The notes below the pieces were generated by a model that made no database searches, was not told the origin of the DNA, and saw only the letters and a program-made list of their open reading frames with translations. Position numbers and translations under genes: made by a program. 64,000 bases of DNA from a virus, in IMG/VR virus record IMGVR_UViG_3300027734_000038. The stretch is one strand, 5' to 3'. The first letter of the stretch is position 1, and each line of letters opens with the position of its first letter. Below, in pieces: positions 14,740 to 62,356 of the stretch.

Positions 14740-15338
14740 ATATTTTTTACCTTGATAATGATCCTGTGAAGTGTGCAGAAATGCACGTTGATAAACATTG
14801 CATAAAGATGATACTTGAATATGCTCAATTACTTTCTACCGCACACCGTGTTCTTGACGGTGTTCTTACTGATGGTGTATCTCAGTCTGGTCGCAAACGG
14901 AAGCTATATGTTCTCAAAGATAGCCGTGATACGATATTGTATTCTGCCACCCATATTAATCATCCTTCTGCTGTATGGTGTAGACAATCTGATTCAAATT
15001 ATATTTGGTTAGCCAATCTATTGCGTGAGTTGTGTAAAGAATATACCTATCGTTATGGTAAAACTCATAAAGTAGAATCTGATGGTTTGTTAAAAGCATT
15101 ATATTGGAATTTACCAAACAATATACCAAAAGCCGTCAATTTTACACAACCCACACCTGCTATGCCTGATGAATGTAAAGTACCTGGTGATGCCTTACAA
15201 TCATATCGTAACTATTATGTTATGAACAAACAACATCTATGGTCATGGAAAGGCAAGATAAATAGTAGAACACCACCACCGTGGTTTAAAGAGTGGACAC
15301 AAAAAGTTCTCGAATCACTTTCTTATGGATATAGTTAA
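14736..15338 (+). CDS. pyrimidine-dimer DNA glycosylase (DenV)-family-like protein
   Basis: MNIFYLD, DKHCIKMILEYAQLLSTAH, HINHPSAVW, EYTYRYGKTH. Confidence 0.7.
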   Translation: MNIFYLDNDPVKCAEMHVDKHCIKMILEYAQLLSTAHRVLDGVLTDGVSQSGRKRKLYVLKDSRDTILYSATHINHPSAVWCRQSDSNYIWLANLLRELCKEYTYRYGKTHKVESDGLLKALYWNLPNNIPKAVNFTQPTPAMPDECKVPGDALQSYRNYYVMNKQHLWSWKGKINSRTPPPWFKEWTQKVLESLSYGYS

Positions 15339-15616
15339 TGCCTGCATATGAATTCTTAAATAAAGATACAAATGAAATTGAAACTCACATAATGAGTTAT
15401 ACTGTATATGACCAATTCAAAGTGGATAATCCACACCTAGAACGATTTATCTCAGCGAAAAATCTTCCAGTCTTTGGTGATGGTTCTCGTATGTCAGTAC
15501 CAGGAATTGGACAGCCTCACGCCGCTTTCGAAACTGGTGTAATTCAAAGAATGAAAGAAACGATTCCTGGTAATACAATGTCTGGTCACAAGACTAAAAA
15601 GCCAAGAGAATGGTAA
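15338..15616 (+). CDS. FmdB-like small protein lacking Zn ligands
   Basis: MPAYEF N-terminus; GATAAATA late-promoter-like site at 15257. Confidence 0.5.
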   Translation: MPAYEFLNKDTNEIETHIMSYTVYDQFKVDNPHLERFISAKNLPVFGDGSRMSVPGIGQPHAAFETGVIQRMKETIPGNTMSGHKTKKPREW

Positions 15617-15730
15617 TCAATAATCTACCTGCCTTACTAATCTACAAAGGAGTTAAACTTGAAAATAAAGTTGCCCCCGTAGTTAAAGCTCAAAAACTAT
15701 CCGATGATAACAATAATAAGAGGAATTTTG

Positions 15731-15895
15731 ATGAGCAAAAAAAGAGGAATGTCCAAACAACAGCGGCTATATTACGAGTATCAAAACAAGGACAAAGTAA
15801 GGCAAGAATTGGTTGAGTTTGTTAAACAAGAAAAAGCAAGAGAAAAAAGTAGTCTAAAATCATATAATCCACACGAAAGCTCGTATTTCACATAA
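15731..15895 (+). CDS. small basic hypothetical protein
   Basis: GAGG SD before MSKKRGMSK. Confidence 0.55.
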   Translation: MSKKRGMSKQQRLYYEYQNKDKVRQELVEFVKQEKAREKSSLKSYNPHESSYFT

Positions 15896-15897
15896 TT

Positions 15898-16491
15898 ATG
15901 AACCTAGATGATGTAAAGAAATATAAATGTGAAAATGAAAATTTATACGAGAATCCAATACTAGCATCAAGTATTAATCTATTACTAGATTTACCTGATG
16001 TTGTTTGTCGGATTCAAGGAACAAAATATGATTCTGCTCACGGTGAAATATTGACATCTGTGGGTAACGAATATTCAAATGTATTAACTTTGCCTGGTGC
16101 AGAACAATTGATGATATGGATTACTTCAAGAATTCAAGAATCTGCACCACCAGGTAAATCAGTAGATTATATAAAATCTTGGGCTAATAAGATGTTTTAT
16201 GGCAGTCAAGGTTTGGTCCATGCACATACACATCCAGATTTTAAAAATTCTGAGTCGGATTTTGTTGCAATATTTTATGTCCACATTCCCGAAAATAGTG
16301 GTCAATTAGTTTTTATTGATGGTGGTGAGTTTAATAAGAAGTATACTGAATATGATGAATCCAAAATGACAATTATGCAATGTGAATCTGGTGACCTAGT
16401 AATACACCCTCCTACAATTCCCCATGCAGTAACAGTTCATAATAGTCATGTACCTAGATTGTGTTTGGTGTTTGAGGGAATATATAAATAG
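15898..16491 (+). CDS. putative 2OG-Fe(II) oxygenase (TIGR02466-like)
   Basis: SWAN, HAHTHP, AIFYV, GDLVIHP..IPHAV....RLCLVF. Confidence 0.75.
   Translation: MNLDDVKKYKCENENLYENPILASSINLLLDLPDVVCRIQGTKYDSAHGEILTSVGNEYSNVLTLPGAEQLMIWITSRIQESAPPGKSVDYIKSWANKMFYGSQGLVHAHTHPDFKNSESDFVAIFYVHIPENSGQLVFIDGGEFNKKYTEYDESKMTIMQCESGDLVIHPPTIPHAVTVHNSHVPRLCLVFEGIYK
16483..16490 (+). promoter_or_regulatory. T4-type late promoter
   Basis: exact TATAAATA 30 nt upstream of the Cys-rich gene. Confidence 0.7.
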
Positions 16492-16519
16492 TCAATATAT
16501 TTGAAAAAAAGAGATTAAA

Positions 16520-16918
16520 ATGACATTACCTTCTTCTGGACCATTAACAATTAATGATGTGAATATCGAAACCGGCCGTGGTTCAGGTACGGCAACTGGC
16601 CTTGATTGGATACGAGATAATACAAAAGATAATGCCACAGCACTAGGTCAATTATATGATAGGGCTTATTATCAAAGAAATGTTGATGGCAACTGTAATA
16701 ATGGAAACTGCACTTCCAATTGTAATTGTGGTAATATTCAATGTAATAATTGTTTGATTGCTGCTACTGTAAACTGTACCAATTGTGATGCACAATCTTG
16801 GTTACAAGGAAACTGTAACTGTGCTTGTACCTATAATTGCACAACATCAGAAACCTCATACAATTGTAACTGCGCTTGTGCTTGTGCCTGTTTCGTTTGC
16901 GCTTGTGCTTGCTGGTAA
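16520..16918 (+). CDS. Cys-rich protein; candidate RiPP-like precursor/substrate of adjacent radical SAM enzyme
   Basis: 58-aa Cys-free N-terminus then 20 Cys in 74 aa, ending CNCACACACFVCACACW. Confidence 0.8.
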   Translation: MTLPSSGPLTINDVNIETGRGSGTATGLDWIRDNTKDNATALGQLYDRAYYQRNVDGNCNNGNCTSNCNCGNIQCNNCLIAATVNCTNCDAQSWLQGNCNCACTYNCTTSETSYNCNCACACACFVCACACW

Positions 16919-16942
16919 TTATTTTATAAAATTAGGATTAAT

Positions 16943-18385
16943 ATGATATTTGAAATTTTGGCTGAAAAAATTGGCGGCGACAAGGCCACATTTTATTATG
17001 ATAACGAATTTAATATTCTCAAAGACTCCAATGGAAATGTATTTGAATATCCAGAAGAAAAGAGAATGAAACAGGACAAACAACCTGTAGTTCCGTTTGA
17101 CAAAAACTCTCCACTTAAAAAATCCAAAGCAATTAAATTACTAAAGATTCAGTTAGGTCTCTCTTGTAATTATTCCTGTGATTATTGTTCTCAAAAATTT
17201 GTTGAAAGAGCACCAGAAACCAGTAAAAAAGATATTGATGATTTCTTGACCAAGTTTGATAAAATGGAATTTAGTGAAGAAAAAGGTCTAAAGATTGAAT
17301 TTTGGGGTGGTGAACCATTTGTTTATTGGAAAACATTAAAACCTTTGGCAGAAGCTTTGCGTGAGAAATTTAGCCATTGGCAAAAAGAACCGGTATTTTC
17401 TGTTATCACCAATGGTTCTATTCTTAATAAAGAAATCTGTGCTTGGTTGTATTACATGGGATTTCAAGTGTCTATTTCACACGATGGTCCAGGTCAAGCA
17501 GTTCGTGGTCCAGATCCATTTGATGATCCAGACCAAAAGAAAATTATTCTCGACTTCTATAAGATTATGAATAAGCAGAAAAGAATTAGTTTTAATTCTA
17601 TGATGAATAATAAAAATAGAAGTCGTAAAGAAGTTCATGATTGGTTTATCAAACTCACCGGTGATCCTAATGTTCCTTTGGGTGAAGGCACCATTGTTGA
17701 TGCATACGATGAAGATGGCCTAACAAATTCATTAGATTCATATCAGGATCATTTTGAATATCGTAAACTGGCTTTCAATGACATTCATGCAAACAACGGC
17801 AACATTGGTTTTGGTATGATTATATCTAAGATTGATGAGTTCACAACTAATGTATTATCACATTCTGAATCTAAATATTTGGGTCAAAAATGTGGCATGG
17901 ATGATGTTGATGTCATGGCAGTTGACTTGCGTGGTAATGTAATGACTTGTCAGAATGTGAGTCCATTAGAAATAGCCAAGAATGGTGAAAGTCATTTTGG
18001 CGGCACATTAGATAACATTGATGATATCGAAATCAAATCAGCCACACATTGGATGAATCGTGCTGATTGTGCAAGTTGTCCTGTATTGCACATCTGTAAA
18101 GGTTCATGTATGTTCCTCGATGATAAGTATTGGGAAACATCATGTAATAATGCTTACTCTGATGCTGTTGCTTTGTTTGCTTTGTCATTCCAAAAAATGA
18201 CAGGTTATGTACCTGTTCTAATTAAGAATGATAGATTACCAAAGGATCGTCAAGATATTTGGGGAACAATGTTGCAACACCAAGAAAAAACTAAAAGAAA
18301 AATTATTCCAATCAAAGTGATTTCGGAAGTAGTGGGTAAAATTGATGAAATTGAAGTTTATGGTAAATCTAAAGTAGAGGCATAA
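16943..18385 (+). CDS. radical SAM enzyme with SPASM domain
   Basis: CNYSCDYC (CxxxCxxC), WGGEP, ITNG, ISHDG; SPASM KCG...VMTC and CASCPVLHICKGSC...C. Confidence 0.92.
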   Translation: MIFEILAEKIGGDKATFYYDNEFNILKDSNGNVFEYPEEKRMKQDKQPVVPFDKNSPLKKSKAIKLLKIQLGLSCNYSCDYCSQKFVERAPETSKKDIDDFLTKFDKMEFSEEKGLKIEFWGGEPFVYWKTLKPLAEALREKFSHWQKEPVFSVITNGSILNKEICAWLYYMGFQVSISHDGPGQAVRGPDPFDDPDQKKIILDFYKIMNKQKRISFNSMMNNKNRSRKEVHDWFIKLTGDPNVPLGEGTIVDAYDEDGLTNSLDSYQDHFEYRKLAFNDIHANNGNIGFGMIISKIDEFTTNVLSHSESKYLGQKCGMDDVDVMAVDLRGNVMTCQNVSPLEIAKNGESHFGGTLDNIDDIEIKSATHWMNRADCASCPVLHICKGSCMFLDDKYWETSCNNAYSDAVALFALSFQKMTGYVPVLIKNDRLPKDRQDIWGTMLQHQEKTKRKIIPIKVISEVVGKIDEIEVYGKSKVEA

Positions 18386-19060
18386 ATGTCGTTAACTATA
18401 TCACCACAATTACAAAAAGCACTAGAGATAGCTTCATCTATTGATGAGGTTATTTCTGTTCAGGCTATCGAACCACCACAAAACATACTAGACCAAATCG
18501 AAAATAAAGATAGTGTGTATTTGGATTTTGTAATTCAAACCAAATCTGGTGAAATGCCTTTTGCTATTGTAGTACCAAAAGTTTTAGTTGATGATGTTGA
18601 TGATTCACTACATATTCCTATTAAAGATTTGTTATCATGCGGTTGCACTCAGGTTGAAGATGGTATTGGTCATATGTGTGGTTATAGTGTATTTGATAAC
18701 ATTGGTAAAATGACATATTATGTTCGTGAGTCCGACCAATACTTGGTAAAACTAATTGATGCCGAAGCACCTTCTATTTTTGAACAAACAGAAAATTTAA
18801 AGAAGTTAATAACAAAACTTGAATCGGTAGATGGTGTAAAACGAATTGTTATTGAAGAAATTGTTGATGATAGTCTAAAACAAAGTTTAGAAGCAGAACG
18901 ACCAGTAATTGTCAAAGCATATATTGATGTTAATAGTGATAAAATTATTGACCATTTTGTTTCATTTGCTGTAACAGAATTAGTTTATGATATTGAAACT
19001 AGTCATGAGTGGGCTGTAAATAATCTTATGGATATGATTGAAAAAAATAATGCACAATGA
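18386..19060 (+). CDS. acidic hypothetical protein in rSAM cluster
   Basis: starts immediately after rSAM stop; SCGC...HMCG motif. Confidence 0.75.
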   Translation: MSLTISPQLQKALEIASSIDEVISVQAIEPPQNILDQIENKDSVYLDFVIQTKSGEMPFAIVVPKVLVDDVDDSLHIPIKDLLSCGCTQVEDGIGHMCGYSVFDNIGKMTYYVRESDQYLVKLIDAEAPSIFEQTENLKKLITKLESVDGVKRIVIEEIVDDSLKQSLEAERPVIVKAYIDVNSDKIIDHFVSFAVTELVYDIETSHEWAVNNLMDMIEKNNAQ

Positions 19061-19583
19061 GAAAATATTATTTGGTACACCGGTTTGGATTCACGATTTA
19101 GATATATCAAATAGTAAACTGGAAGAAGAAGGTCGACCATATAAAACTGGTAACTACTTTGACCTCAATACACCAGAAATCAACAAATTAAAATACACAG
19201 TAAAATCTTACTGTGACCAAATAGCCGAACAATATCATTGGAATAAAAAAGCCACTTATATTGTTGGTCGGCAAAATCCAATATTTCCAGGAGAAAATGA
19301 TACGCCCCATGGTCATCACCATGCAATGATGGTTGCCGTCTATTATCTTCAAGTGCCAGAAAAATCAGGTGACATCATATTGAACGATCCTCGTGGTATG
19401 GTATTTTGGGTTGATCCACAAGTTGTCAATGATGGACCACATAAGAGTTGTCGGTCATATCATCGTATCACACCAAAACCAGGAATGTTGTTGATGTTCC
19501 CAAATTATTTAATTCACTCCGTTGAAACCAATATGAGTAATGAAATGAGATTGTCTATTATGATGGAAATTTATAATCTATGA
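19050..19583 (+). CDS. putative 2OG-Fe(II) oxygenase (TIGR02466-like)
   Basis: LFGTPVW, PHGH, VAVYY, DPRG, FPNYLIHSVETN....RLSI. Confidence 0.85.
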   Translation: MHNEKILFGTPVWIHDLDISNSKLEEEGRPYKTGNYFDLNTPEINKLKYTVKSYCDQIAEQYHWNKKATYIVGRQNPIFPGENDTPHGHHHAMMVAVYYLQVPEKSGDIILNDPRGMVFWVDPQVVNDGPHKSCRSYHRITPKPGMLLMFPNYLIHSVETNMSNEMRLSIMMEIYNL

Positions 19584-20116
19584 GTAGAATCAATTTATTT
19601 TCCACACCTGTTTGGACAATAAAGTTAAATGATGATGAATTAAATTCTAACTTATTTTCAATTGCAGGCAACTATAAAGTTGGCACCGATTATTTTGAAC
19701 AGAATAACGAGTCGGTGTTACAATTAAAAAGTCAAATTCAATCCGCTCTATCTGATGTGGCAACAGAATGTGGTTTCTCTACCAATTTTAAATTTACTGG
19801 TCGTCAGAACCCAATGATGCCAGGAAAAAACAATTCACCACACCATCATCCTGATTGTAAGTTAGTTGCTGTGTATTATGTTAAGGTGCCAGAAAAATCA
19901 GGAGATATTTTACTACATGACCCAAGAGGTTCTATATTGTGGTCAGACCCACAAGCAAGAACTGATGTTGCTTGGGAATCACACAGACCTTACCATAAGA
20001 TTACACCGACACCAGGTACATTATTAATATTTCCTGGTTATGTAATACATTCGGTTGAAACAAATCTAAGTAATGAAATCAGAATATCAATTGCAATATC
20101 TACGAGGTTCGAATGA
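19580..20116 (+). CDS. putative 2OG-Fe(II) oxygenase (TIGR02466-like), paralog of upstream gene
   Basis: LFSTPVW, PHHHP, VAVYY, DPRG, FPGYVIHSVETN....RISI. Confidence 0.85.
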   Translation: MSRINLFSTPVWTIKLNDDELNSNLFSIAGNYKVGTDYFEQNNESVLQLKSQIQSALSDVATECGFSTNFKFTGRQNPMMPGKNNSPHHHPDCKLVAVYYVKVPEKSGDILLHDPRGSILWSDPQARTDVAWESHRPYHKITPTPGTLLIFPGYVIHSVETNLSNEIRISIAISTRFE

Positions 20117-21258
20117 AATATACAATTTTAGGTGGCGGCACAGCAGGTTGGTTGACCGCACTATTTGTTAATAAACATTATCCAAACGATGATGTTACTG
20201 TAATAGCCAGTTCCGAAATTGGAATATTAGGTGCAGGTGAAGGCACCACTCCACACTTTATAAATTTTCTTAATCAGTTGGGTATCGATGAAAAAGATAT
20301 CTATGAAAACTGTAAGGCAACCATTAAAACAGGAATTAAATTCACTAATTGGAATGGCGAAGGTGATGAATACTATCACAACTTTAACTGTATAGGTCCT
20401 GATTTACACGCTTTGCATTTTGATGCCAGTTTATTGGCCAAATACTTTCAATCGTTGGCTATCTCCCGTGGTGTGAAACTAATTGATGATGAAGTGGTAG
20501 ATATAAAGTGTAAAGAGAATAAAGATGTGGAAAGTTTTATTCTGAAGTCTGGTAATGTGGAACATACCGATTTTGTTTTTGATTGTTCTGGATTTAGGAG
20601 ATTAATTATCGGAGGGCTTTACAAATCAGAATGGATAGAGTATAATATGCCTTGTAGGAGGGCAATACCATTCTTTTTACCGAATGATAATACCAATCTG
20701 CCTCAGTATACCGAATCAGTTGCAATGAAGTATGGATGGATATGGAAGATTCCTGTTCAAGGTCGATATGGTTGTGGTTATGTGTTTGATTGCACAAAGA
20801 CTACAGATGAAGAAGCCAAACAAGAGATAAGAGATTATCTCGGACACGATTTTGTATCACCCAAGACATTCAACTTTAATGCTGGTTCTTATAAAGATGT
20901 TTGGATTAACAATTGTTTAGGTGTAGGTTTATCTTCTGGTTTTATTGAACCACTAGAAGCTACATCAATATGGATTCAGATTATAACATTGAATACTTTT
21001 ATTGAATGTGATGGCAATAAAGAAAAATTGAACCACGACATGAAAGAAATGAATGAAGATATTTTAGGTTTCTTATACTATCATTACATGACAAAAAGAA
21101 CTGATAGTAAATTTTGGTCAGAGTTTCAAAAAGATAATAAGATGCCTGAAAAATTAAAAATGAGATTAGAAAATAAGTTGATTACAAATAATTTTAGTAT
21201 GTTTACCGAAGAAAGTTGGCAGACAATTAAAGAAGGAATAAATTATGTTAATTCCTAA
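20113..21258 (+). CDS. flavin-dependent halogenase, tryptophan halogenase family (shortened)
   Basis: GGGTAG, GAGEGT, ATIKTGIKF (catalytic Lys region), DCSGF, WIWKIP, FIEPLEATSI. Confidence 0.9.
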   Translation: MKYTILGGGTAGWLTALFVNKHYPNDDVTVIASSEIGILGAGEGTTPHFINFLNQLGIDEKDIYENCKATIKTGIKFTNWNGEGDEYYHNFNCIGPDLHALHFDASLLAKYFQSLAISRGVKLIDDEVVDIKCKENKDVESFILKSGNVEHTDFVFDCSGFRRLIIGGLYKSEWIEYNMPCRRAIPFFLPNDNTNLPQYTESVAMKYGWIWKIPVQGRYGCGYVFDCTKTTDEEAKQEIRDYLGHDFVSPKTFNFNAGSYKDVWINNCLGVGLSSGFIEPLEATSIWIQIITLNTFIECDGNKEKLNHDMKEMNEDILGFLYYHYMTKRTDSKFWSEFQKDNKMPEKLKMRLENKLITNNFSMFTEESWQTIKEGINYVNS

Positions 21259-21859
21259 ATGCATTGATGGTAAGTTTGAAATAATTGATGTGCTTGATCC
21301 TTGGGATTGCATTAATAATAAGTTGCTTTGGGATATAGGTTCAGTTGATAAAAATTTGATTGATTGGTTTAATATGCAAAAAATTAAACCAAAAACTGTG
21401 TTAGAATTAGGATGTGGTTCGGGAATCAATTCTATTTGGTTATCCAAACAAGGTTGTGATGTTACTGCGATAGATTTTCATGATTCAGCTTTATCAAAAA
21501 CAAAACAAATATCAGAAGAAAATAAAATAAAAATTGATTTATTAAAAATAGACTTGATTAAAGAAAAATGGCCAAAAAAAAAGTTTGATTTTATTTTTGA
21601 CCGAGGTTGTTTTCATATCTTTAATGAATTAGAATGTGAAATTTATACCTCTAAATTGATTGAGTGTTTGACATCTAGTGGAGTTTGGTTAAGTTTGATT
21701 GGAAGTAAAGAACAGTTTGAATGGTTTTGGTCGGCAACAAAAATAATCAATATGGTTGAGCCAAAATTAAAAATTTTAAGTTTAAACAAAACAACACTAG
21801 AAACAATAGATGGCCATGATGTGAAAGCGTGGGCACTATTAACCAAAAGAAAAATATAA
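21245..21859 (+). CDS. class I SAM-dependent methyltransferase (TPMT/TehB-like)
   Basis: VLELGCGSG, VTAIDF, FDFIFDRGCFH. Confidence 0.88.
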   Translation: MLIPKCIDGKFEIIDVLDPWDCINNKLLWDIGSVDKNLIDWFNMQKIKPKTVLELGCGSGINSIWLSKQGCDVTAIDFHDSALSKTKQISEENKIKIDLLKIDLIKEKWPKKKFDFIFDRGCFHIFNELECEIYTSKLIECLTSSGVWLSLIGSKEQFEWFWSATKIINMVEPKLKILSLNKTTLETIDGHDVKAWALLTKRKI

Positions 21860-21860
21860 T

Positions 21861-22529
21861 ATGACATTTAATTACTGCCCACCTAAATCATTGCCAGACT
21901 TAAAATCTGAAACCTTTCCTGACGGCAAGAGATACTATACATTGGAAGATGGTACAAAACTTCCATCAGTTACTACTGTGCTTGGCGCCCAAAAGAAGGC
22001 AGGTATTATGGCATGGCGTAAGAAGGTGGGTGAAGAAGAAGCTAACCGAGTATCGAGAATTGCAACAGGTCGTGGTACCGCAGTCCATACATTATGTGAG
22101 AATTATTTAAACAATAATGATTTAGGTTCTGCAATGCCAGATGCACTTGAAATGTTCCTATCTCTCAAGCCATTACTTAATCGTATCAACAACATACATT
22201 ACCAAGAGTGTGCATTGTGGTCCAAACAATTGGAGATGGCGGGTAGGGTCGATTGTATTGCTGAGTTCGATGGCAAGTTATCTGTGATTGACTTTAAAAC
22301 CTCCAAGCGTGCCAAGACAGAGGCACACATTGAGGATTACTTCTGGCAAACAACCGCATATGCCTTGATGTATGAGGAGATGATTGGTACACCTATTGAT
22401 GATATCATTATTATTATGGCTGTGGAGAATGACCTGCCATTAATATTTAAACAGAAAACCGCTGACCACATACCTGGATTGGTGAAAGCAATAAATTATT
22501 ACAAAGAGAGTTCTACAAAGCATAAATAA
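21861..22529 (+). CDS. PD-(D/E)XK exonuclease of T4-like phages
   Basis: PSVTTVL, RGTAVH, AGRVDCIA, IDFKTS, QxxAYA. Confidence 0.85.
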   Translation: MTFNYCPPKSLPDLKSETFPDGKRYYTLEDGTKLPSVTTVLGAQKKAGIMAWRKKVGEEEANRVSRIATGRGTAVHTLCENYLNNNDLGSAMPDALEMFLSLKPLLNRINNIHYQECALWSKQLEMAGRVDCIAEFDGKLSVIDFKTSKRAKTEAHIEDYFWQTTAYALMYEEMIGTPIDDIIIIMAVENDLPLIFKQKTADHIPGLVKAINYYKESSTKHK

Positions 22530-22585
22530 AACACCAGCAACACACAAACCGCTGGTATACACACAACACACAAAGGAGTAACAAT

Positions 22586-22858
22586 ATGACACCCTATGAA
22601 ATTCGCCTAGAATTATTAAAAATGGCGCAAGGTTTAGTATCTGATGAGTATTCATACAGCAGAAGCGCTAAACTAGAACAATGGCACACACAGGTCGAAG
22701 CCGCAAAGATTGCCGGTTTAGAATCACCTGATATTCCCGAATTGCCAAATTTCCCAACAGAAGCAGATATAGTTAAGAAGGCAGAAGCCCTCAATCTATT
22801 CGTTTCGCAAACCCCTCCACAACCTGAAGTTAAAATAAAATCGAAAACAAATTCGTAA
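22586..22858 (+). CDS. conserved phage hypothetical protein
   Basis: AAGGAG SD; MTPYEIRLELLKMA; CATAAATA at 22521. Confidence 0.75.
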   Translation: MTPYEIRLELLKMAQGLVSDEYSYSRSAKLEQWHTQVEAAKIAGLESPDIPELPNFPTEADIVKKAEALNLFVSQTPPQPEVKIKSKTNS

Positions 22859-53029: not shown

Positions 53030-53251
53030 ATGGCAATTGTAAAAATACCTGGCACAACTTATGTAAGGGATACAAATACTATGGCTCTTATTAACACCGA
53101 TGTTGCTGGATTAGAAGATTATAGAATGAAATCGACTCTGATTAATAACCAAAAATCAGAAATAAATAAAGTAAAAAATGAAATCAATGAAATCCGAGGT
53201 GATGTAAAAGTTATCAAAGAATTATTGATGCAATTATCTGGAAAACAATAA
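53030..53251 (+). CDS. small coiled-coil virion-associated protein
   Basis: YVRDTNTMALINTD...heptad C-terminus; ATG 2 nt after previous stop. Confidence 0.7.
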   Translation: MAIVKIPGTTYVRDTNTMALINTDVAGLEDYRMKSTLINNQKSEINKVKNEINEIRGDVKVIKELLMQLSGKQ

Positions 53252-54714
53252 TGGCTAATACAGTTTCTTATCTAAGTTTTGCTAATACATTTGGTGATTG
53301 GGTCGTTGTAACGAATTCTCTGGCACGAGAGAGTAACGACTTTGCGGCCAATAATTATGTTAAGCCAACAGGTACACTCTTTTTAAATTCACCTTCATTA
53401 GGCTTACAAGTAGCAAATAATGCCATTGTTGCTGGTCAATTACAGGTACAAGGTACTGGTTCTGGTGCTTATGTTCAAAACAACTTGCGAGTTGATGGCC
53501 AAGTTACTTTTCAAAATACTACATTAGGATTAACCAATACTGGTGATATGGTAGTAGGTGGTAGTTTATCTGTTGGTGGAAACTTTATTATTACAGGTAG
53601 TACCATCAATAGTTCTAATAGTTTTACATTAAATGCAAATAATATTGTTGGTAGTAATACAACATTCAATGTGTATCGTGGTTCATCTGGTGCCAATGCT
53701 TCTATTTTATGGAACGAAAGTGTTGACCAATGGCAAATTTTAAATCTTACAGATTCAACATACTATAAGATTTTAACAACTAGTGATGTAACATCGTCAT
53801 TATTATCTACAAGTTCTAATACAGCGGCTTCAGCATCAGCAGCTAATACATTGAACACTTCAATTGCAACACAAAATATTGCATTGCAGAGCATTATTAC
53901 TACTGCAAACACTTCTATGAAGTCGTATGTAGATAATGCCAACACATCCATGAAATCTTATGTGGATTCCAATTTTGGTTTAATTTCTGGCATTAATGCA
54001 ACACAGAACTCATCAATCATTATTGCACAAGGTGTAGATAATACTCAAAATACACAGATTTCTGGTATTCAAGGTGTGGATGACACACAAAATACTCGCA
54101 TGAGTATCATTGAAGGTGTGAATGTCACTCAAAACACTAATATTACTTCTGTTAATAACTTTGCTGGTGGTGCTTATACAACTGCTAATGGTGCAAATGG
54201 TCTGGCCGCAGGTGCTTTTGCAGCTGCTAACACCAAAGTCGCTTCAATTACTGGTACAACCAATCAGGTTACTGTAACCGGCACAACTACACCAACATTA
54301 TCTTTACCGCAAAGTATTAATACTGGTGCATCCGTTCAGTTTGGTTCATTTGGCGTAGGTACAGCTGCATCCGGCACAACTGGTGAAATCCGTGCTACCA
54401 ATAACATTACTGCTTACTACTCAGATGATAGACTTAAAACCAAATTAGGCAATATTGAGAGTGCATTAGATAAAGTGTTGTCATTAAATGGTTTCTACCA
54501 TGAAGCCAATGAAACAGCACAAGCATTAGGTTATCAAGTAGTTCGTGAGGTCGGTGTGTCAGCACAAGAGGTCAATGCAGTTCTACCAGAGGTTGTGGCG
54601 CCTGCACCAATTGATCCTCAGTATATGACAGTTCGGTATGAAAGATTAGTTCCTTTGTTAATTGAAGCAATCAAGGAATTGAAGTCGGAGATAGATGGTT
54701 TGAAGAAATCCTAA
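53251..54714 (+). CDS. tail fibre with C-terminal intramolecular chaperone (peptidase S74)
   Basis: AYYSDDRLK, GVSAQEV..VLPEVV, VRYERLVPLLIEAIKEL. Confidence 0.88.
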   Translation: MANTVSYLSFANTFGDWVVVTNSLARESNDFAANNYVKPTGTLFLNSPSLGLQVANNAIVAGQLQVQGTGSGAYVQNNLRVDGQVTFQNTTLGLTNTGDMVVGGSLSVGGNFIITGSTINSSNSFTLNANNIVGSNTTFNVYRGSSGANASILWNESVDQWQILNLTDSTYYKILTTSDVTSSLLSTSSNTAASASAANTLNTSIATQNIALQSIITTANTSMKSYVDNANTSMKSYVDSNFGLISGINATQNSSIIIAQGVDNTQNTQISGIQGVDDTQNTRMSIIEGVNVTQNTNITSVNNFAGGAYTTANGANGLAAGAFAAANTKVASITGTTNQVTVTGTTTPTLSLPQSINTGASVQFGSFGVGTAASGTTGEIRATNNITAYYSDDRLKTKLGNIESALDKVLSLNGFYHEANETAQALGYQVVREVGVSAQEVNAVLPEVVAPAPIDPQYMTVRYERLVPLLIEAIKELKSEIDGLKKS

Positions 54715-54838: not shown

Positions 54839-55180
54839 ATGGCAGCAGCATATCAAGAACTATTTCTAGAACAAGGTACAACATTTACCACCAATATCAC
54901 ACTAGATGATATTGATGGACTCCCTTTCAATTTGACTGATGTTATCGCTAAAAGTCAGATTCGTAAGTCATACTATTCGGCCAATGTAACCGCTCAGTTT
55001 ACTACCACTATTAATTCTCCTAATACAGGAGTTATTCTATTGTCTTTATCAGCACCAGTCACAGCCAATATTGCGGCTGGCCGATATGTATATGATGTAG
55101 CAATTAAAGATACCGCTAATACTGTAACTAGAGTATTAGAAGGAGTCGTGAATGTTATTCCTCAAGTCACTAAGTTTTAA
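54839..55180 (+). CDS. fibre adaptor-like protein (BppU N-terminal-like fold)
   Basis: LEQGTTF, SQIRKSY, GRYVYDV, RVLEG. Confidence 0.6.
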   Translation: MAAAYQELFLEQGTTFTTNITLDDIDGLPFNLTDVIAKSQIRKSYYSANVTAQFTTTINSPNTGVILLSLSAPVTANIAAGRYVYDVAIKDTANTVTRVLEGVVNVIPQVTKF

Positions 55181-59064: not shown

Positions 59065-60612
59065 ATGGCCACACAATTACAACTGAGAAAAGGTAATACC
59101 GCACAGACCGCAGTCTTTACAGGTGCAGTCGCTGAGGTTACTGTTGATACTGACCAAGATACCGTTGTTGTCCATGACGGCACAACTGTTGGCGGTAACT
59201 ATATTGTTACTAAAACACAATTACAAAGTAACGTATCGATACTACAAGGTATCAACACTACACAAAATACCAATATTACAGCTGTCAACGGATATGCCGC
59301 TGGTGCTTTCAATGCAGCCAATGGTGCCAATGGTTTAGCTGCCGGTGCTTTTGCAGCTGCCAATACCAACGCCACAAATATTACAATCATTCAAGGTGTA
59401 AACACCACACAAAATACCAACATTACCGCAGTAAACAACTATGCTGTTTCTGCATACAATCAAGCTAACACCAATGCAACCAACATTACAGCAGTAAATG
59501 GTTTTGCTCAGTCAGCATTTAATACTGCCAATGGTGCGAATGGTTTGGCTGCAGGTGCTTTTAATCAGGCAAACTCGGCATATTCTTATACTACACAAGT
59601 AGAAGCTATTGCACAAAATGGATGGAACAAAGCTAATGCTGCTTTTAATTCGTCCAATGCAGTAAATGGTTTTGCCGTATCGGCCTACAATCAGGCAAAC
59701 GCATCTACTCTTTTAGCACAATCAGCCTACGACACAGCCAATCTAAAGTTCAATACTTCTGGTGGTAATATTAATGGTTCAGTTACTATTACAGCTAATA
59801 ATAATTTAACTGTTACTGGTAACTTATATGTTCTAGGAAATACAACATCATTTTCTACACAAACATTTGATGTAGTTGACCCAATGATTCTGTTGGCAAC
59901 AGGAAACTATACAACTGATACATTAGACATTGGTTTTGCAGGACATTATAATAATGGTTCCAATGCTCATACAGGTTTGTTCCGAGATGCAGCAGGCACT
60001 AAAGAGTGGTACCTATTTGAAGGTTATACTCCTGAAGTTACTGGTAATAACAACATTAATGTTGCTGACAGTTCATTTAGAACATCCAATGTAAATGTTA
60101 ATTATGTAAAAGGTAATCTAATTGCTACAACAGCAATTGTTGGTGACCGTAATATACTAAATTATACACAGTCAGCTTTTGATACTGCCAACACGGCCAA
60201 TACAAGAGCATATGCTTCTGTTGCCAAGTCTGGCGATACAATGACTGGTGCATTGACTGGTGTAACAACACTTGGTACAACTACAATTAGTTTATCTCAT
60301 GTAGATGCCACAAGTAATACATTATTAACATCATCTACATCACAAGTTTCTGTTGATGCATGGCCAACAGCCACATATCGTTCTGCCAAATACTTTGTTC
60401 AAATTTCTTCTGGTACTGATTTTCATATTATTGAATTAAATCTACTTCACAATGGTACTACAGTATTCTTGGCACAATATGGTGAAGTATTAACTAGTTC
60501 TTCTTTAGGAACATTTGATGCTGATATTTCTGGTTCAACAGTTCGTCTATTGTTTACTGGTGTAAATGCAGTATCAACAGTCAAACTTTTAAGAACTGTG
60601 GTGGATGCATAA
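59065..60612 (+). CDS. tail fibre protein with Mtd-like N-terminal domain
   Basis: QLQLRKGNTAQ..VFTGAVAEVTVDTD..TVVVHDGTTVGG; GATAAATA at 59023. Confidence 0.8.
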   Translation: MATQLQLRKGNTAQTAVFTGAVAEVTVDTDQDTVVVHDGTTVGGNYIVTKTQLQSNVSILQGINTTQNTNITAVNGYAAGAFNAANGANGLAAGAFAAANTNATNITIIQGVNTTQNTNITAVNNYAVSAYNQANTNATNITAVNGFAQSAFNTANGANGLAAGAFNQANSAYSYTTQVEAIAQNGWNKANAAFNSSNAVNGFAVSAYNQANASTLLAQSAYDTANLKFNTSGGNINGSVTITANNNLTVTGNLYVLGNTTSFSTQTFDVVDPMILLATGNYTTDTLDIGFAGHYNNGSNAHTGLFRDAAGTKEWYLFEGYTPEVTGNNNINVADSSFRTSNVNVNYVKGNLIATTAIVGDRNILNYTQSAFDTANTANTRAYASVAKSGDTMTGALTGVTTLGTTTISLSHVDATSNTLLTSSTSQVSVDAWPTATYRSAKYFVQISSGTDFHIIELNLLHNGTTVFLAQYGEVLTSSSLGTFDADISGSTVRLLFTGVNAVSTVKLLRTVVDA

Positions 60613-60647: not shown

Positions 60648-61223
60648 ATGAGAGGTGAATGGTGTTATTTTGGGAAGTATTTTACTCCCGAGCAGTGCAG
60701 TAGAATATTAGAAAATGGATTAAAAATACCGGCACAAGACGCCAAGTTAGGCGTTGCCGGTATGAATGATTATAGTAATGATTCGTTCCGCAAATCCAAA
60801 ATCCGTTTTATTCAATCTGATAACCCCGATTTTAAGTGGCTCTTTGATGAGTTATTAAAAATGGGTATGCAGGCCAATAAAGATTGGTTCAATTTTCATA
60901 TTACCAATCTATCATATATTCAATTAGCCGAATACGATGAATCATATCAAGGTGAATACAAGAAACACCATGATGTGTTTTGGGTAAACAATGATAGTTA
61001 CCATCGTAAACTTACCTGTGTAATTCAACTTACAGACCCATCAGAGTATGAGGGTGGTGACCTAGAGTTGTTTGAACTATCTGAATATCCAAACAAAGAC
61101 GAACTACGCCAGCAAGGCACAGCAATCTTCTTCCCGTCTTTTATTCCACATCAAGCACATCCAGTAACAAAAGGTAAACGATATAGTATTGCAGTATGGT
61201 TTGAAGGAGATAAGTGGAAATGA
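60648..61223 (+). CDS. 2OG-Fe(II) oxygenase, prolyl-4-hydroxylase/PKHD-like
   Basis: HHD (HxD), RKLTCVIQL, YEGGDL, FPSFIPHQAHPVTKGKRYS. Confidence 0.88.
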   Translation: MRGEWCYFGKYFTPEQCSRILENGLKIPAQDAKLGVAGMNDYSNDSFRKSKIRFIQSDNPDFKWLFDELLKMGMQANKDWFNFHITNLSYIQLAEYDESYQGEYKKHHDVFWVNNDSYHRKLTCVIQLTDPSEYEGGDLELFELSEYPNKDELRQQGTAIFFPSFIPHQAHPVTKGKRYSIAVWFEGDKWK

Positions 61224-62356
61224 GATTTCATATTTTAGGATTACCCCATACTGTATCATCAAAAGAATATAATGCGTGTGCATATACTCAGAAAGTGGTT
61301 AAATTTGGTAAGATGATGACTGAAAGAGGTCATGAAGTGATTCATTATGGCCATGAAGAATCGGACTTACCATGCACAGAACACGTTACTGTATTGTCTA
61401 CTGAAGATTGGAAGAAAACATATGGTGACCATGACTGGCGTAAACACTTCTTTAAGTTTGACACCAACGACCATGCATATCAAACTTTCTATCGTAATGC
61501 TATTGAAGAAGTAGGTAAACGCAAACAAAAGAATGACTTTATTCTTCCGTTTTGGGGTTCAGGTACTCGACCAGTCTGTGATGCACATCCAGATTTAATC
61601 TGTGTAGAACCAGGAATTGGTTATGCAGGTGGCCATTGGGCACGATTTAAAATCTTTGAATCTTATGCCATCTATCACGCATACTATGGACTAGATTCAG
61701 TAGGTACTTGTAAGCAAGACTGGTACGATGCAGTTATTCCAAACTACTTTGACCCCGAAGATTTTGTATATACACCAGAGGAGAAAGAAGATTACTTTCT
61801 ATTTCTAGGTCGTGTATATGAGGGTAAAGGAGTTAATATTGCGGTACAGGCAACTGAAGCCATTGGTGCCAAGTTAATTATTGCCGGACAGAACTCACTC
61901 AAAGATATGGGTTACAAAGAAGTACCATCTCATGTTACTGAAATTGGTTATGCGGATGTGGAAACTAGAAAGAAGTTGATGTCCAAAGCCAAAGGTGCAT
62001 TTGTGGCATCGTTATACACCGAACCTTTTGGAGGCGTTCAGGTCGAGTGCCTTTTCTCAGGTACGCCTACGATAACAACTGATTGGGGTTCGTTCACGGA
62101 GAACAATATCCATGGTGTTACGGGGTATAGGTGCAAGACCTTTGAACAGTTTACTTGGGCAGCTAAGAATATTGACAACATTAAACCACAAGCCTGTAGG
62201 GACTTCGCACTAAATAACTTTAGTCTGGATGTGGTAGCACAGAAATATGAAGAATATTTTCAGTCAGTATTAAATGTTTATAATGGTGATGGATGGTATG
62301 AAAAGAATGATAACCGGACCGAATTGGACTGGTTAACCAAATATTATCCTGCCTAA
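61220..62356 (+). CDS. glycosyltransferase, GT-B/GT4-like
   Basis: FLGRV...KG, IAGQ, EPFGGVQVE...SGTP.ITTDWG, GVTGY. Confidence 0.88.
   Translation: MRFHILGLPHTVSSKEYNACAYTQKVVKFGKMMTERGHEVIHYGHEESDLPCTEHVTVLSTEDWKKTYGDHDWRKHFFKFDTNDHAYQTFYRNAIEEVGKRKQKNDFILPFWGSGTRPVCDAHPDLICVEPGIGYAGGHWARFKIFESYAIYHAYYGLDSVGTCKQDWYDAVIPNYFDPEDFVYTPEEKEDYFLFLGRVYEGKGVNIAVQATEAIGAKLIIAGQNSLKDMGYKEVPSHVTEIGYADVETRKKLMSKAKGAFVASLYTEPFGGVQVECLFSGTPTITTDWGSFTENNIHGVTGYRCKTFEQFTWAAKNIDNIKPQACRDFALNNFSLDVVAQKYEEYFQSVLNVYNGDGWYEKNDNRTELDWLTKYYPA

What the first reader, a model, noticed from the sequence alone, without database searches (positions are those of the whole stretch)
16483..16693. The Cys-rich substrate looks like a late-expressed, virion-docked fibre-tip protein rather than a secreted peptide
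Seen: an exact T4 late promoter TATAAATA (16483-16490) lies 30 nt before its ATG, and the cluster has no protease, transporter or double-Gly leader. From memory, the N-terminus MTLPSSGPLTINDVNIETGR...ALGQLYDRAY resembles the M(A/T)LPxSGxISxxxVNxELG...LxxxYGK module that begins many small phage proteins encoded next to S74-chaperone tail fibres. That module is reminiscent of the gp38 adhesin anchoring region. This window has such a fibre (53251-54714) with no such gene following it. Inference: the N-terminus is a fibre-docking domain and the Cys-rich part is an enzymatically crosslinked or decorated receptor-binding tip, i.e. RiPP chemistry used to build a virion adhesin.
Basis: partly seen in the sequence, partly recalled or inferred. 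Interest (0 to 1): 0.88.

Follow-up and report, generated by a model that had tools for sequence, protein, structure and literature searches.

The report
Radical-SAM-paired cysteine-rich phage fibre protein
An uncultured T4-like marine phage makes, from a late promoter, a small protein that joins a widespread tail-fibre-associated N-terminal module to a conserved Asn-Cys-rich head always paired with a radical-SAM enzyme, so it is most likely an enzymatically modified part of the virus tail fibre, not a secreted peptide.

Summary
TATAAATA lies at 16483-16490, 29 nt before the ATG of a 132-aa protein (16520-16918). Its 7-mer core occurs 13 times in the window (32 expected), always on the gene strand, and mostly before structural genes. 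The core sits 27-39 nt upstream of the homologous gene in 42 of 79 related loci (chance about 0.2%).

The N-terminal 55 residues are a real, widespread module. A profile finds 721 protein clusters, always from residue 1. Their C-terminal parts include Gp38 adhesin, PA14, F5/8-C and fibrinogen-like domains. In cultured phages these genes typically abut a tail-fibre gene.

The Cys/Asn-rich head pairs with a SPASM radical-SAM enzyme in 79 of 80 viral loci and 6 of 6 genome loci. Relatives fuse it to self-cleaving S74 or Hint domains, or place it directly after an S74 fibre. In Achromobacter phage JWF a real tail fibre ends in the same ladder plus Hint, two genes upstream of the enzyme.

Not supported:
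- homology to the gp38 anchor (hhalign 0.2%);
- a host-specific receptor-binding role, since the head is more conserved than the anchor;
- docking on fibre 53251-54714, which remains untested.

No expression or virion data exist for this phage. The scan reached similar readings on other genomes. I found no paper describing it.

The parts
16483..16490 (+). T4-type late-promoter motif TATAAATA (the NATAAATA class of T4-like cyanophages)
   Evidence: Exact match. The core is depleted and found only on the + strand. It is conserved 27-39 nt upstream of the homologous gene in 42 of 79 loci. Consensus as described in PMC2984593.
16520..16918 (+). CDS for the 132-aa N-module plus Cys/Asn-rich protein (20 Cys)
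   Evidence: ORF. There are 269 near-length and 313 longer homologues.
16520..16684 (+). N-terminal module, residues 1-55: the proposed anchor/adaptor domain
   Evidence: AF2 pLDDT 81-86. The profile finds 721 clusters, always N-terminal. It matches the first ~55 positions of phrog_26817 and phrog_26746.
16688..16915 (+). Cys/Asn-rich head, residues 57-132, with NC dipeptide ladder; the proposed radical-SAM substrate
   Evidence: Invariant Cys and Asn columns. Mean pairwise identity 70% for residues 57-107. AF2 pLDDT below 50.
16943..18385 (+). Radical SAM/SPASM enzyme, the obligate partner
   Evidence: Pfam PF04055, NCBIfam SPASM TIGR04085, best family PapB at E 1.6e-22. CxxxCxxC and the 7-Cys SPASM motif were read in the sequence. 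Adjacent in 79 of 80 viral loci and 6 of 6 genome loci.
15898..16491 (+). 2OG-Fe(II) oxygenase upstream; possible tailoring enzyme
   Evidence: PF13759. An oxygenase lies nearby in about 56 of 80 loci.
18386..19060 (+). 224-aa unknown protein whose start abuts the radical-SAM stop
   Evidence: No family hit. A homologue is present in 7 of 80 loci.
19038..20116 (+). Two further 2OG-Fe(II) oxygenases
   Evidence: PF13759, E 1e-19 and 2e-20.
20113..21258 (+). Trp-halogenase-family flavoenzyme
   Evidence: PF04820, E 6e-93. Present in 19 of 80 loci.
21245..21859 (+). SAM-dependent methyltransferase
   Evidence: PF13649 and related families. Not found in any of the 80 loci.
53251..54714 (+). 487-aa tail fibre with C-terminal S74 intramolecular chaperone; candidate docking partner, unproven
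   Evidence: PF13884 at residues 391-449. SDDRLK motif at residue 391. The tip and chaperone are 50% identical to a fibre that flanks the cluster in L070.

Best explanation
ORF 16520-16918 encodes a small tail-fibre-associated virion protein, transcribed late from a T4-type promoter.

Residues 1-55 are a widespread N-terminal phage module. I infer that it anchors interchangeable C-terminal heads to the phage's own fibre or tail.

Residues 57-132 are a conserved Asn-Cys ladder. I infer that the adjacent SPASM radical-SAM enzyme modifies it in the cytoplasm before assembly. The most likely product is Cys thioether cross-links, by analogy with PapB, CrpC and QhpD. The neighbouring oxygenases, halogenase and methyltransferase may tailor it further.

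Relatives carry a self-cleaving S74 or Hint domain exactly where this protein ends. The 132-aa form therefore corresponds to their mature product and is probably trimeric.

Shown: the motif, the family, the architectures and the gene linkage. Inferred: late transcription, presence in virions, docking, and the chemistry.
For: Promoter:
- exact TATAAATA, with the core depleted and strand-exclusive;
- it sits before baseplate and tail genes;
- it is conserved 27-39 nt upstream in 42 of 79 loci against 0.24% by chance;
- NATAAATA is the described cyanomyovirus late promoter (PMC2984593).

Enzyme coupling:
- a radical-SAM homologue is adjacent in 79 of 80 viral loci and 6 of 6 genome loci;
- the enzyme is of SPASM peptide-maturase type.

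Fibre link:
- relatives carry a C-terminal S74 chaperone fused at ...CACACFW|SDDRLK, or a Hint domain at ...C|CF.AGT;
- the gene starts at or overlaps the stop of a tail-fibre gene, S74-type in nearly all, in L041/42/44/46/47/53/57/58/61/79/33 and in the Polynucleobacter, Paraburkholderia and Hyphomicrobiaceae loci;
- in L065 and L070 the whole cluster is flanked by S74 fibres;
- in Achromobacter phage JWF a 483-aa tail fibre ends in NCNCDCNCNC plus Hint, two genes upstream of a 41%-identical radical-SAM gene, within the tail module.

N-module:
- 721 clusters, always from residue 1;
- heads include PF05268 Gp38 adhesin, PF21722, F5/8-C, PA14/GLEYA and fibrinogen-C;
- in cultured phages the gene abuts annotated tail fibres;
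- none of the 41 N-module phage records is among the 11 records with a radical-SAM homologue, so the module is not a RiPP leader.

Precedent: SPASM enzymes cross-link protein substrates (CrpC/CrpA, PMC13692751).
Against: - There is no expression, proteomic or structural datum for this phage or this family.
- In the window the gene sits about 37 kb from the S74 fibre, among non-structural genes.
- The head is more conserved than the anchor, unlike typical receptor-binding proteins.
- The commonest relatives (about 300 aa) carry a helical C-terminal domain with a hydrophobic last helix. This could mean membrane tethering rather than virion incorporation.
- The N-module shows no homology to the S16 gp38 anchor, and no solved or predicted structure matches it.
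- The enzyme scores far below every curated family cut-off (80 bits against 340 for PapB), so its chemistry is open.
Confidence: 0.6

Rival explanations
1. It is a fibre-assembly or maturation factor rather than a retained virion part. The small protein would act on the neighbouring fibre, as T4 gp38 or Tfa-type chaperones do, and then leave. The Cys ladder would bind metal or Fe-S and cooperate with the radical-SAM enzyme.
For: The position directly downstream of fibre genes is the classical place of tail-fibre assembly genes. The head is strongly conserved, as expected for a catalytic or assembly role. AF2 cannot fold the head alone.
Against: S74-type fibres carry their own chaperone. The ladder is fused to the C-terminal end of a real fibre in JWF. 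Relatives have their own S74 or Hint domains, which fits a structural product. N-module relatives carry adhesin-type heads.
Confidence: 0.14
2. It is a RiPP-like product released or acting inside the host. The N-terminal 55 residues would serve as a leader recognised by the radical-SAM enzyme, and the Cys-rich core would be the active, modified peptide or protein.
For: The architecture is leader-like plus Cys-rich core, next to a SPASM enzyme and tailoring enzymes. CrpA has a comparable 47-residue N-terminal region.
Against: No protease, transporter or signal peptide is present. The N-module occurs on hundreds of proteins with no Cys core, in phages that lack the enzyme. JWF has the ladder and the enzyme without the N-module. 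The core is conserved rather than hypervariable. S74 fusions and fibre adjacency point elsewhere.
Confidence: 0.08
3. It is a virion fibre part whose Cys ladder coordinates metal ions along a trimer axis, analogous to the His-x-His iron sites of the T4 gp37 needle. It would carry no covalent cross-links, and the enzyme would perform another modification or act on another target.
For: Alternating C-x-C strings place the Cys residues on one face of a strand (sequence). S74 fusions imply a trimer. The gp37 comparison rests on my own knowledge of that structure.
Against: The near-obligate adjacency of a peptide-maturase-type SPASM enzyme is hard to explain without a substrate relation.
Confidence: 0.1

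Closest known systems
CrpC/CrpA of Methanococcus voltae (SPASM radical-SAM enzyme installing ranthionine cross-links in a Cys-rich protein; PMC13692751) and QhpD/QhpC
   Same: A SPASM enzyme is encoded next to a Cys-rich protein rather than a short peptide. The N-terminal region is Cys-free and the C-terminal region holds repeated Cys motifs. There is no export machinery. TIGR04463, the CrpC family, is among the enzyme's weaker hits (E 3e-10).
   Different: The context here is phage and tail fibre. The repeat is an Asn-Cys ladder, not C-x-x-Q/D. The N-module is shared with proteins that have no such enzyme. Relatives have self-cleaving S74 or Hint ends. No biochemistry has been done.
PapB/PapA (freyrasin) and SCIFF ranthipeptide systems; NxxcB/NxxcA Cys-Asn beta-thioether
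   Same: PapB is the best NCBIfam match (E 1.6e-22). The enzyme has the full 7-Cys SPASM motif. The substrate has seven N-x-x-C spacings.
   Different: The score is far below the family cut-offs (80 against 340 bits). The substrate is a 132-aa conserved protein. No leader protease or transporter is present.
T2/S16-type Gp38 adhesin at the tip of the long tail fibre (PF05268)
   Same: Both are small two-part proteins with an N-terminal attachment part and an unusual repetitive head. Relatives are encoded directly after the distal fibre gene. One N-module protein (P0367) carries a true PF05268 head (E 1.1e-9).
   Different: The window protein has no PF05268 hit. The N-module is not detectably homologous to the S16 gp38 N-terminus. 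The head is Cys/Asn-rich rather than Gly-rich, and it is conserved rather than hypervariable.
S74 (endosialidase-type) intramolecular-chaperone fibres, PF13884
   Same: Relatives carry this domain at the same SD.RLK junction as the window's own fibre. The 132-aa form ends where cleavage would occur.
   Different: The window protein itself has no chaperone domain.

Membership tests
T4-type late promoter (TATAAATA / cyanophage NATAAATA) | Exact octamer a short distance upstream of a gene, on the coding strand | tested here: met
   Motif at 16483-16490, 29 nt before the ATG. The spacing matches that of other sites before structural genes.
T4-type late promoter (TATAAATA / cyanophage NATAAATA) | Motif class is non-random in the genome and conserved at orthologous positions | tested here: met
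   13 of 13 copies on the + strand, 13 against 32 expected. Present in 42 of 79 loci at 27-39 nt upstream against 0.24% by chance.
T4-type late promoter (TATAAATA / cyanophage NATAAATA) | Late transcript start a few bases downstream; dependence on gp55/gp33 | not testable with these tools
gp55 and gp33 were not searched for.
RiPP precursor with SPASM maturase (ranthipeptide/SCIFF type) | Adjacent radical-SAM/SPASM maturase | tested here: met
RiPP precursor with SPASM maturase (ranthipeptide/SCIFF type) | Dedicated leader that goes with the maturase; leader protease and exporter | tested here: not met
   The N-module occurs widely without the enzyme. The cluster holds no protease or transporter.
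RiPP precursor with SPASM maturase (ranthipeptide/SCIFF type) | Enzyme reaches a curated family cut-off | tested here: not met
   Best hit is PapB at 80 bits against a cut-off of 340.
Gp38 adhesin (PF05268) | Pfam GP38 domain | tested here: not met
   No Pfam hit for the window protein. It is met only by the N-module relative P0367.
Gp38 adhesin (PF05268) | N-terminal attachment domain homologous to gp38 | tested here: not met
   hhalign of profile A2 against S16 gp38 gave probability 0.2%. Only one gp38 sequence was used.
Gp38 adhesin (PF05268) | Gene directly downstream of the distal fibre gene | tested here: not met
   Not so in the window. It is so in many relatives.
N-terminal module of phrog_26817 / phrog_26746 | Match to the first ~55 profile positions, at the protein's N-terminus | tested here: met
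   The window protein alone matches weakly (E 0.0036). The family profile A2 retrieves these proteins, and they hit both PHROGs at E 1e-6 to 1e-11.
S74 intramolecular-chaperone fibre proteins (PF13884) | C-terminal PF13884 domain with SD.RLK cleavage motif | tested here: not met
   Absent from the window protein. Present in relatives P0019/24/29/35/79/99/105/113.
Protein-substrate SPASM systems (CrpC/CrpA, QhpD/QhpC) | Three-cluster SPASM enzyme plus an adjacent Cys-rich protein | tested here: met
   CxxxCxxC, Cx13Gx4C, Cx2Cx5Cx3C and a final C were read in the sequence. TIGR04085 hit. Adjacency shown.
Protein-substrate SPASM systems (CrpC/CrpA, QhpD/QhpC) | Thioether cross-links demonstrated in the substrate | not testable with these tools
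   Needs mass spectrometry.

The most novel reading that the evidence does not exclude
Phages of many lineages use RiPP-type radical-SAM chemistry to build a covalently cross-linked Asn-Cys knob on a virion fibre. This knob is one of many interchangeable heads carried by a universal N-terminal plug that seats on a fibre tip, possibly the tip exposed after the S74 chaperone is cleaved off. It would be the first enzyme-installed cross-link in a phage host-recognition organelle.
Probability: 0.4. Interest if true: 0.88.

Novelty: new variant of a known kind. Interest (0 to 1): 0.75.

Why it matters
If true, phage tail fibres would be a second natural setting, after CrpA- and QhpC-type proteins, where SPASM radical-SAM enzymes modify whole proteins. 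It would be the first case of enzyme-installed cross-links in a phage adsorption apparatus.

It would also reinterpret the puzzling cyanophage islands of oxygenases and halogenases. These have been read as secondary-metabolite clusters (PMC2984593 gives the phage background; PMC2938197 gives that reading). They might instead be machinery that modifies virion proteins.

Finally, it defines a widespread N-terminal module that marks small fibre-associated proteins with swappable heads. That is useful for annotating receptor-binding genes.

Tried and rejected
- Complex prediction of three copies of the fibre tip (residues 296-390 of ORF 53251-54714) with three copies of the N-module gave no answer. 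It counts neither for nor against binding.
- Fold searches with the AF2 model gave nothing. BFVD returned only a family member, plus non-significant rows that included two Gp38-domain proteins at E 1.9-3.9. VIA-align against 48,161 PDB chains returned no match.
- PDB sequence searches with both profiles found nothing meaningful.
- hhalign against S16 gp38 was negative.
- tblastn of the whole protein against 50,697 phage records found only a weak N-terminal hit. Megablast of the cluster found nothing.
- The Atlas search of the helical C-terminal domain was uninformative. Foldseek against the PDB for that domain showed only chance-level helical matches.
- Sigma-70-like sites in 15300-22700 are at chance level, 39 against 36.7 expected.
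- I tried to identify the N-module protein in the published virion proteome of the Erwinia Eneladusvirus phages. The table lists only masses. A 20.8-kDa hypothetical protein matches the computed 20.77 kDa, but this is a match by mass only.
No expression test and no look-up of further contig contexts was therefore possible.
- Literature searches for a description of this system found none.

Full report
**What is there.** The window belongs to an uncultured viral record of 108 kb, estimated 64% complete. It is a T4-like phage whose gp32 is about 57% identical to that of Synechococcus myoviruses. ORF 16520-16918 encodes 132 residues. The N-terminal 55-58 residues are Cys-free. The C-terminal 75 residues hold 20 Cys, most of them preceded by Asn. 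TATAAATA lies at 16483-16490, overlapping the stop codon of the upstream 2OG oxygenase gene, with 29 nt between the motif and the ATG.

**The promoter.** One copy of the octamer is not in itself more than chance: 8.7 are expected. The signal is in the class of sites.
- The core ATAAATA occurs 13 times against 32 expected, and all 13 copies are on the + strand.
- Nine copies lie 12-92 nt before a gene start. Five, including this one, lie 36-43 nt before it.
- The genes downstream include a baseplate tail-tube cap, baseplate wedge subunits, a tail protein and gp32.
- The core lies 27-39 nt upstream of the homologous ATG in 42 of 79 related loci. This includes loci where the radical-SAM gene comes first and the motif sits in the 31-46 nt gap between the two genes.
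- From the motif density in those loci (0.18 per kb), chance predicts 0.24%.
- The loci without the motif are those where the gene abuts the radical-SAM gene or a fibre gene, and so is probably co-transcribed.

NATAAATA is the described late promoter of cyanomyoviruses (PMC2984593). Sigma-70-like sites in the region are at chance level. Late transcription is therefore well supported as an inference, but it has not been measured.

**The protein family.** Homologues are abundant in metagenomes: 269 of near length and 313 longer, at 50-90% identity over both halves. They come in four architectures:
- stand-alone proteins ending in CACAC(W) or an acidic/Gly tail;
- fusion to an S74 intramolecular chaperone, with the junction just before SD.RLK;
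- fusion to a Hint domain, with the junction before CF.AGT;
- fusion to a helical domain of about 170 residues of unknown family.

The window protein ends exactly where S74 or Hint self-cleavage would leave the mature product. The window's own fibre (53251-54714) has the same SDDRLK junction. As far as I know, S74 domains occur only in trimeric fibres and spikes, so a trimeric, fibre-like product is the natural reading.

AF2 gives a confident small domain for residues 1-55 (pLDDT 81-86). It gives no confident fold for the Cys-rich part (pLDDT below 50). That would fit a fold that depends on cross-links, metal or oligomerisation.

**Coupling to the enzyme.** A homologue of ORF 16943-18385 (54-94% identical) lies next to the gene in 79 of 80 IMG/VR loci, on either side. 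The one exception is a contig that ends 210 bp after the gene. The same holds in 6 of 6 loci from bacterial genomes and MAGs.

The enzyme has the CxxxCxxC motif and the full seven-Cys SPASM motif (read). It hits TIGR04085. Its best family matches are peptide and protein cross-linkers: PapB, CcpM, QhpD-type, SCIFF and TIGR04463. All score far below their curated cut-offs. It is a new subfamily whose chemistry is inferred, not shown.

CrpC/CrpA (PMC13692751) shows experimentally that such enzymes can install ranthionine links in a Cys-rich protein.

**Link to tail fibres.**
- In several unrelated, non-T4-like groups of viral contigs, the gene starts at or overlaps the stop codon of a 211-779-aa tail-fibre gene inside the structural module. 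The radical-SAM gene follows downstream, immediately in most of these loci. Most of these fibres end in an S74 domain.
- The same order, S74 fibre then Cys-rich gene then enzyme, is seen in Polynucleobacter, Paraburkholderia and a Hyphomicrobiaceae MAG.
- In the T4-like relatives L065 and L070 the whole oxygenase/Cys/enzyme/halogenase cluster is flanked by S74 fibres on both sides. The tip and chaperone of one of these is 50% identical to the window's fibre.
- In cultured Achromobacter phage JWF, the enzyme's 41%-identical homologue sits in the tail module. Two genes upstream is a 483-aa fibre that ends in an Asn/Asp-Cys ladder followed by a Hint domain.
- In Ralstonia phage RSP15 the enzyme follows a side tail fibre that ends in NCQCGN, and a 2OG-type oxygenase.

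**The N-terminal module.** I built a profile from residues 1-54 of 39 family members and searched it against 1.84 billion representative proteins. It found 721 proteins at E up to 0.001, almost always from residue 1, in proteins of 38-1154 residues.

Their C-terminal parts include a true Gp38 adhesin domain (P0367, PF05268, E 1.1e-9), the Gly_rich_2 domain, F5/8 type C, PA14/GLEYA and fibrinogen-C. These are domains of the binding kind. The module corresponds to the first 55 positions of phrog_26817 and phrog_26746, both of unknown function.

In 41 cultured phage records such genes typically abut an annotated tail-fibre gene. Examples are BUCT194, Pasto, vB_VpaP-MS02, PhiImVa-1, ORM_20, the Yersinia, Serratia and Erwinia Eneladusviruses, and HTVC008M. 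In pEa_SNUABM_47 the preceding fibre is of S74 type. That fibre's mass (58.8 kDa) appears in the published virion proteome. A 20.8-kDa hypothetical protein in the same table matches the module protein's 20.77 kDa, but by mass only.

None of these 41 records is among the 11 with a radical-SAM homologue. JWF has the ladder and the enzyme without the module. The module is therefore not a RiPP leader. It is an independent unit that goes with fibres.

**What is not supported.**
- The module is not detectably homologous to the N-terminus of S16 gp38 (hhalign probability 0.2%). No solved or predicted structure matches it. The gp38 analogy is one of position and architecture.
- The Cys-rich core is much more conserved than the module: 70% against 42% mean pairwise identity. 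This is the reverse of a typical receptor-binding protein. It argues for a constrained structural or chemical role rather than host-specific recognition. The variable module may be what adapts to each phage's own fibre.
- The commonest relatives carry a helical C-terminal domain with a hydrophobic last helix. That domain also ends DUF4815-type phage proteins. Its role is unknown and could involve a membrane.
- Docking on fibre 53251-54714 remains untested.

**Verdict.** The protein is most likely a late, fibre-associated virion protein whose head is a radical-SAM substrate. Whether that head binds a receptor, and which part of the tail it docks on, is open.

Other agents of this scan reached similar readings on other genomes. 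I found no paper that describes the system.

Noticed in passing
window 1-64000: ATAAATA is depleted 2.5-fold (13 against 32 expected), and all 13 copies are on the + strand. This looks like selection against stray late promoters.
   Followed up: partly
window 54839-55180: The 113-aa gene right after the S74 fibre matches phrog_3304, 'L-shaped tail fiber protein assembly' (E 1e-22). The fibre does therefore have a small follower gene, of a different kind.
   Followed up: partly
L027 (IMG/VR 3300032245_000902) against window 15338-22529: The flanking genes are 98-100% identical to the window's. The Cys-rich protein is only 48% identical, is of the 300-aa type, and has the radical-SAM gene upstream. 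The cassette appears to be swapped within an otherwise near-identical genome.
   Followed up: no
P0121 residues 128-304; BFVD A0A6J5LIK6, A0A6M5C7S3: The unknown helical C-terminal domain of the 300-aa relatives also ends larger phage proteins, including a DUF4815 protein (Foldseek E 3.5e-10). It may be a third kind of removable C-terminal module of tail proteins.
   Followed up: partly
window 60648-62356: Another 2OG-Fe(II) oxygenase, with its own ATAAATA site at 60612, and a glycosyltransferase lie among the structural genes.
   Followed up: no
L044 11863-12482, L046, L047, L053, L092 8910-9260: In the non-T4-like loci the radical-SAM gene is followed by one or two small proteins of about 100 aa with similar ends. 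They may correspond to the halves of the window's 224-aa unknown (18386-19060).
   Followed up: no
L088 (Ralstonia phage RSP15) 2431-6341: A side tail fibre ending in NCQCGN is followed, after one further unknown gene, by a protein with an HxD...H oxygenase-like motif and then the radical-SAM gene. This looks like a minimal version of the same theme in a cultured Ackermannviridae phage.
   Followed up: partly
L083 (Pelagibacter phage HTVC008M) 6001-10764: An N-module protein follows a 1068-aa protein in the structural region. It lies beside four oxygenase genes (two 2OG-Fe(II), two phytanoyl-CoA dioxygenase) but no radical-SAM gene.
   Followed up: no
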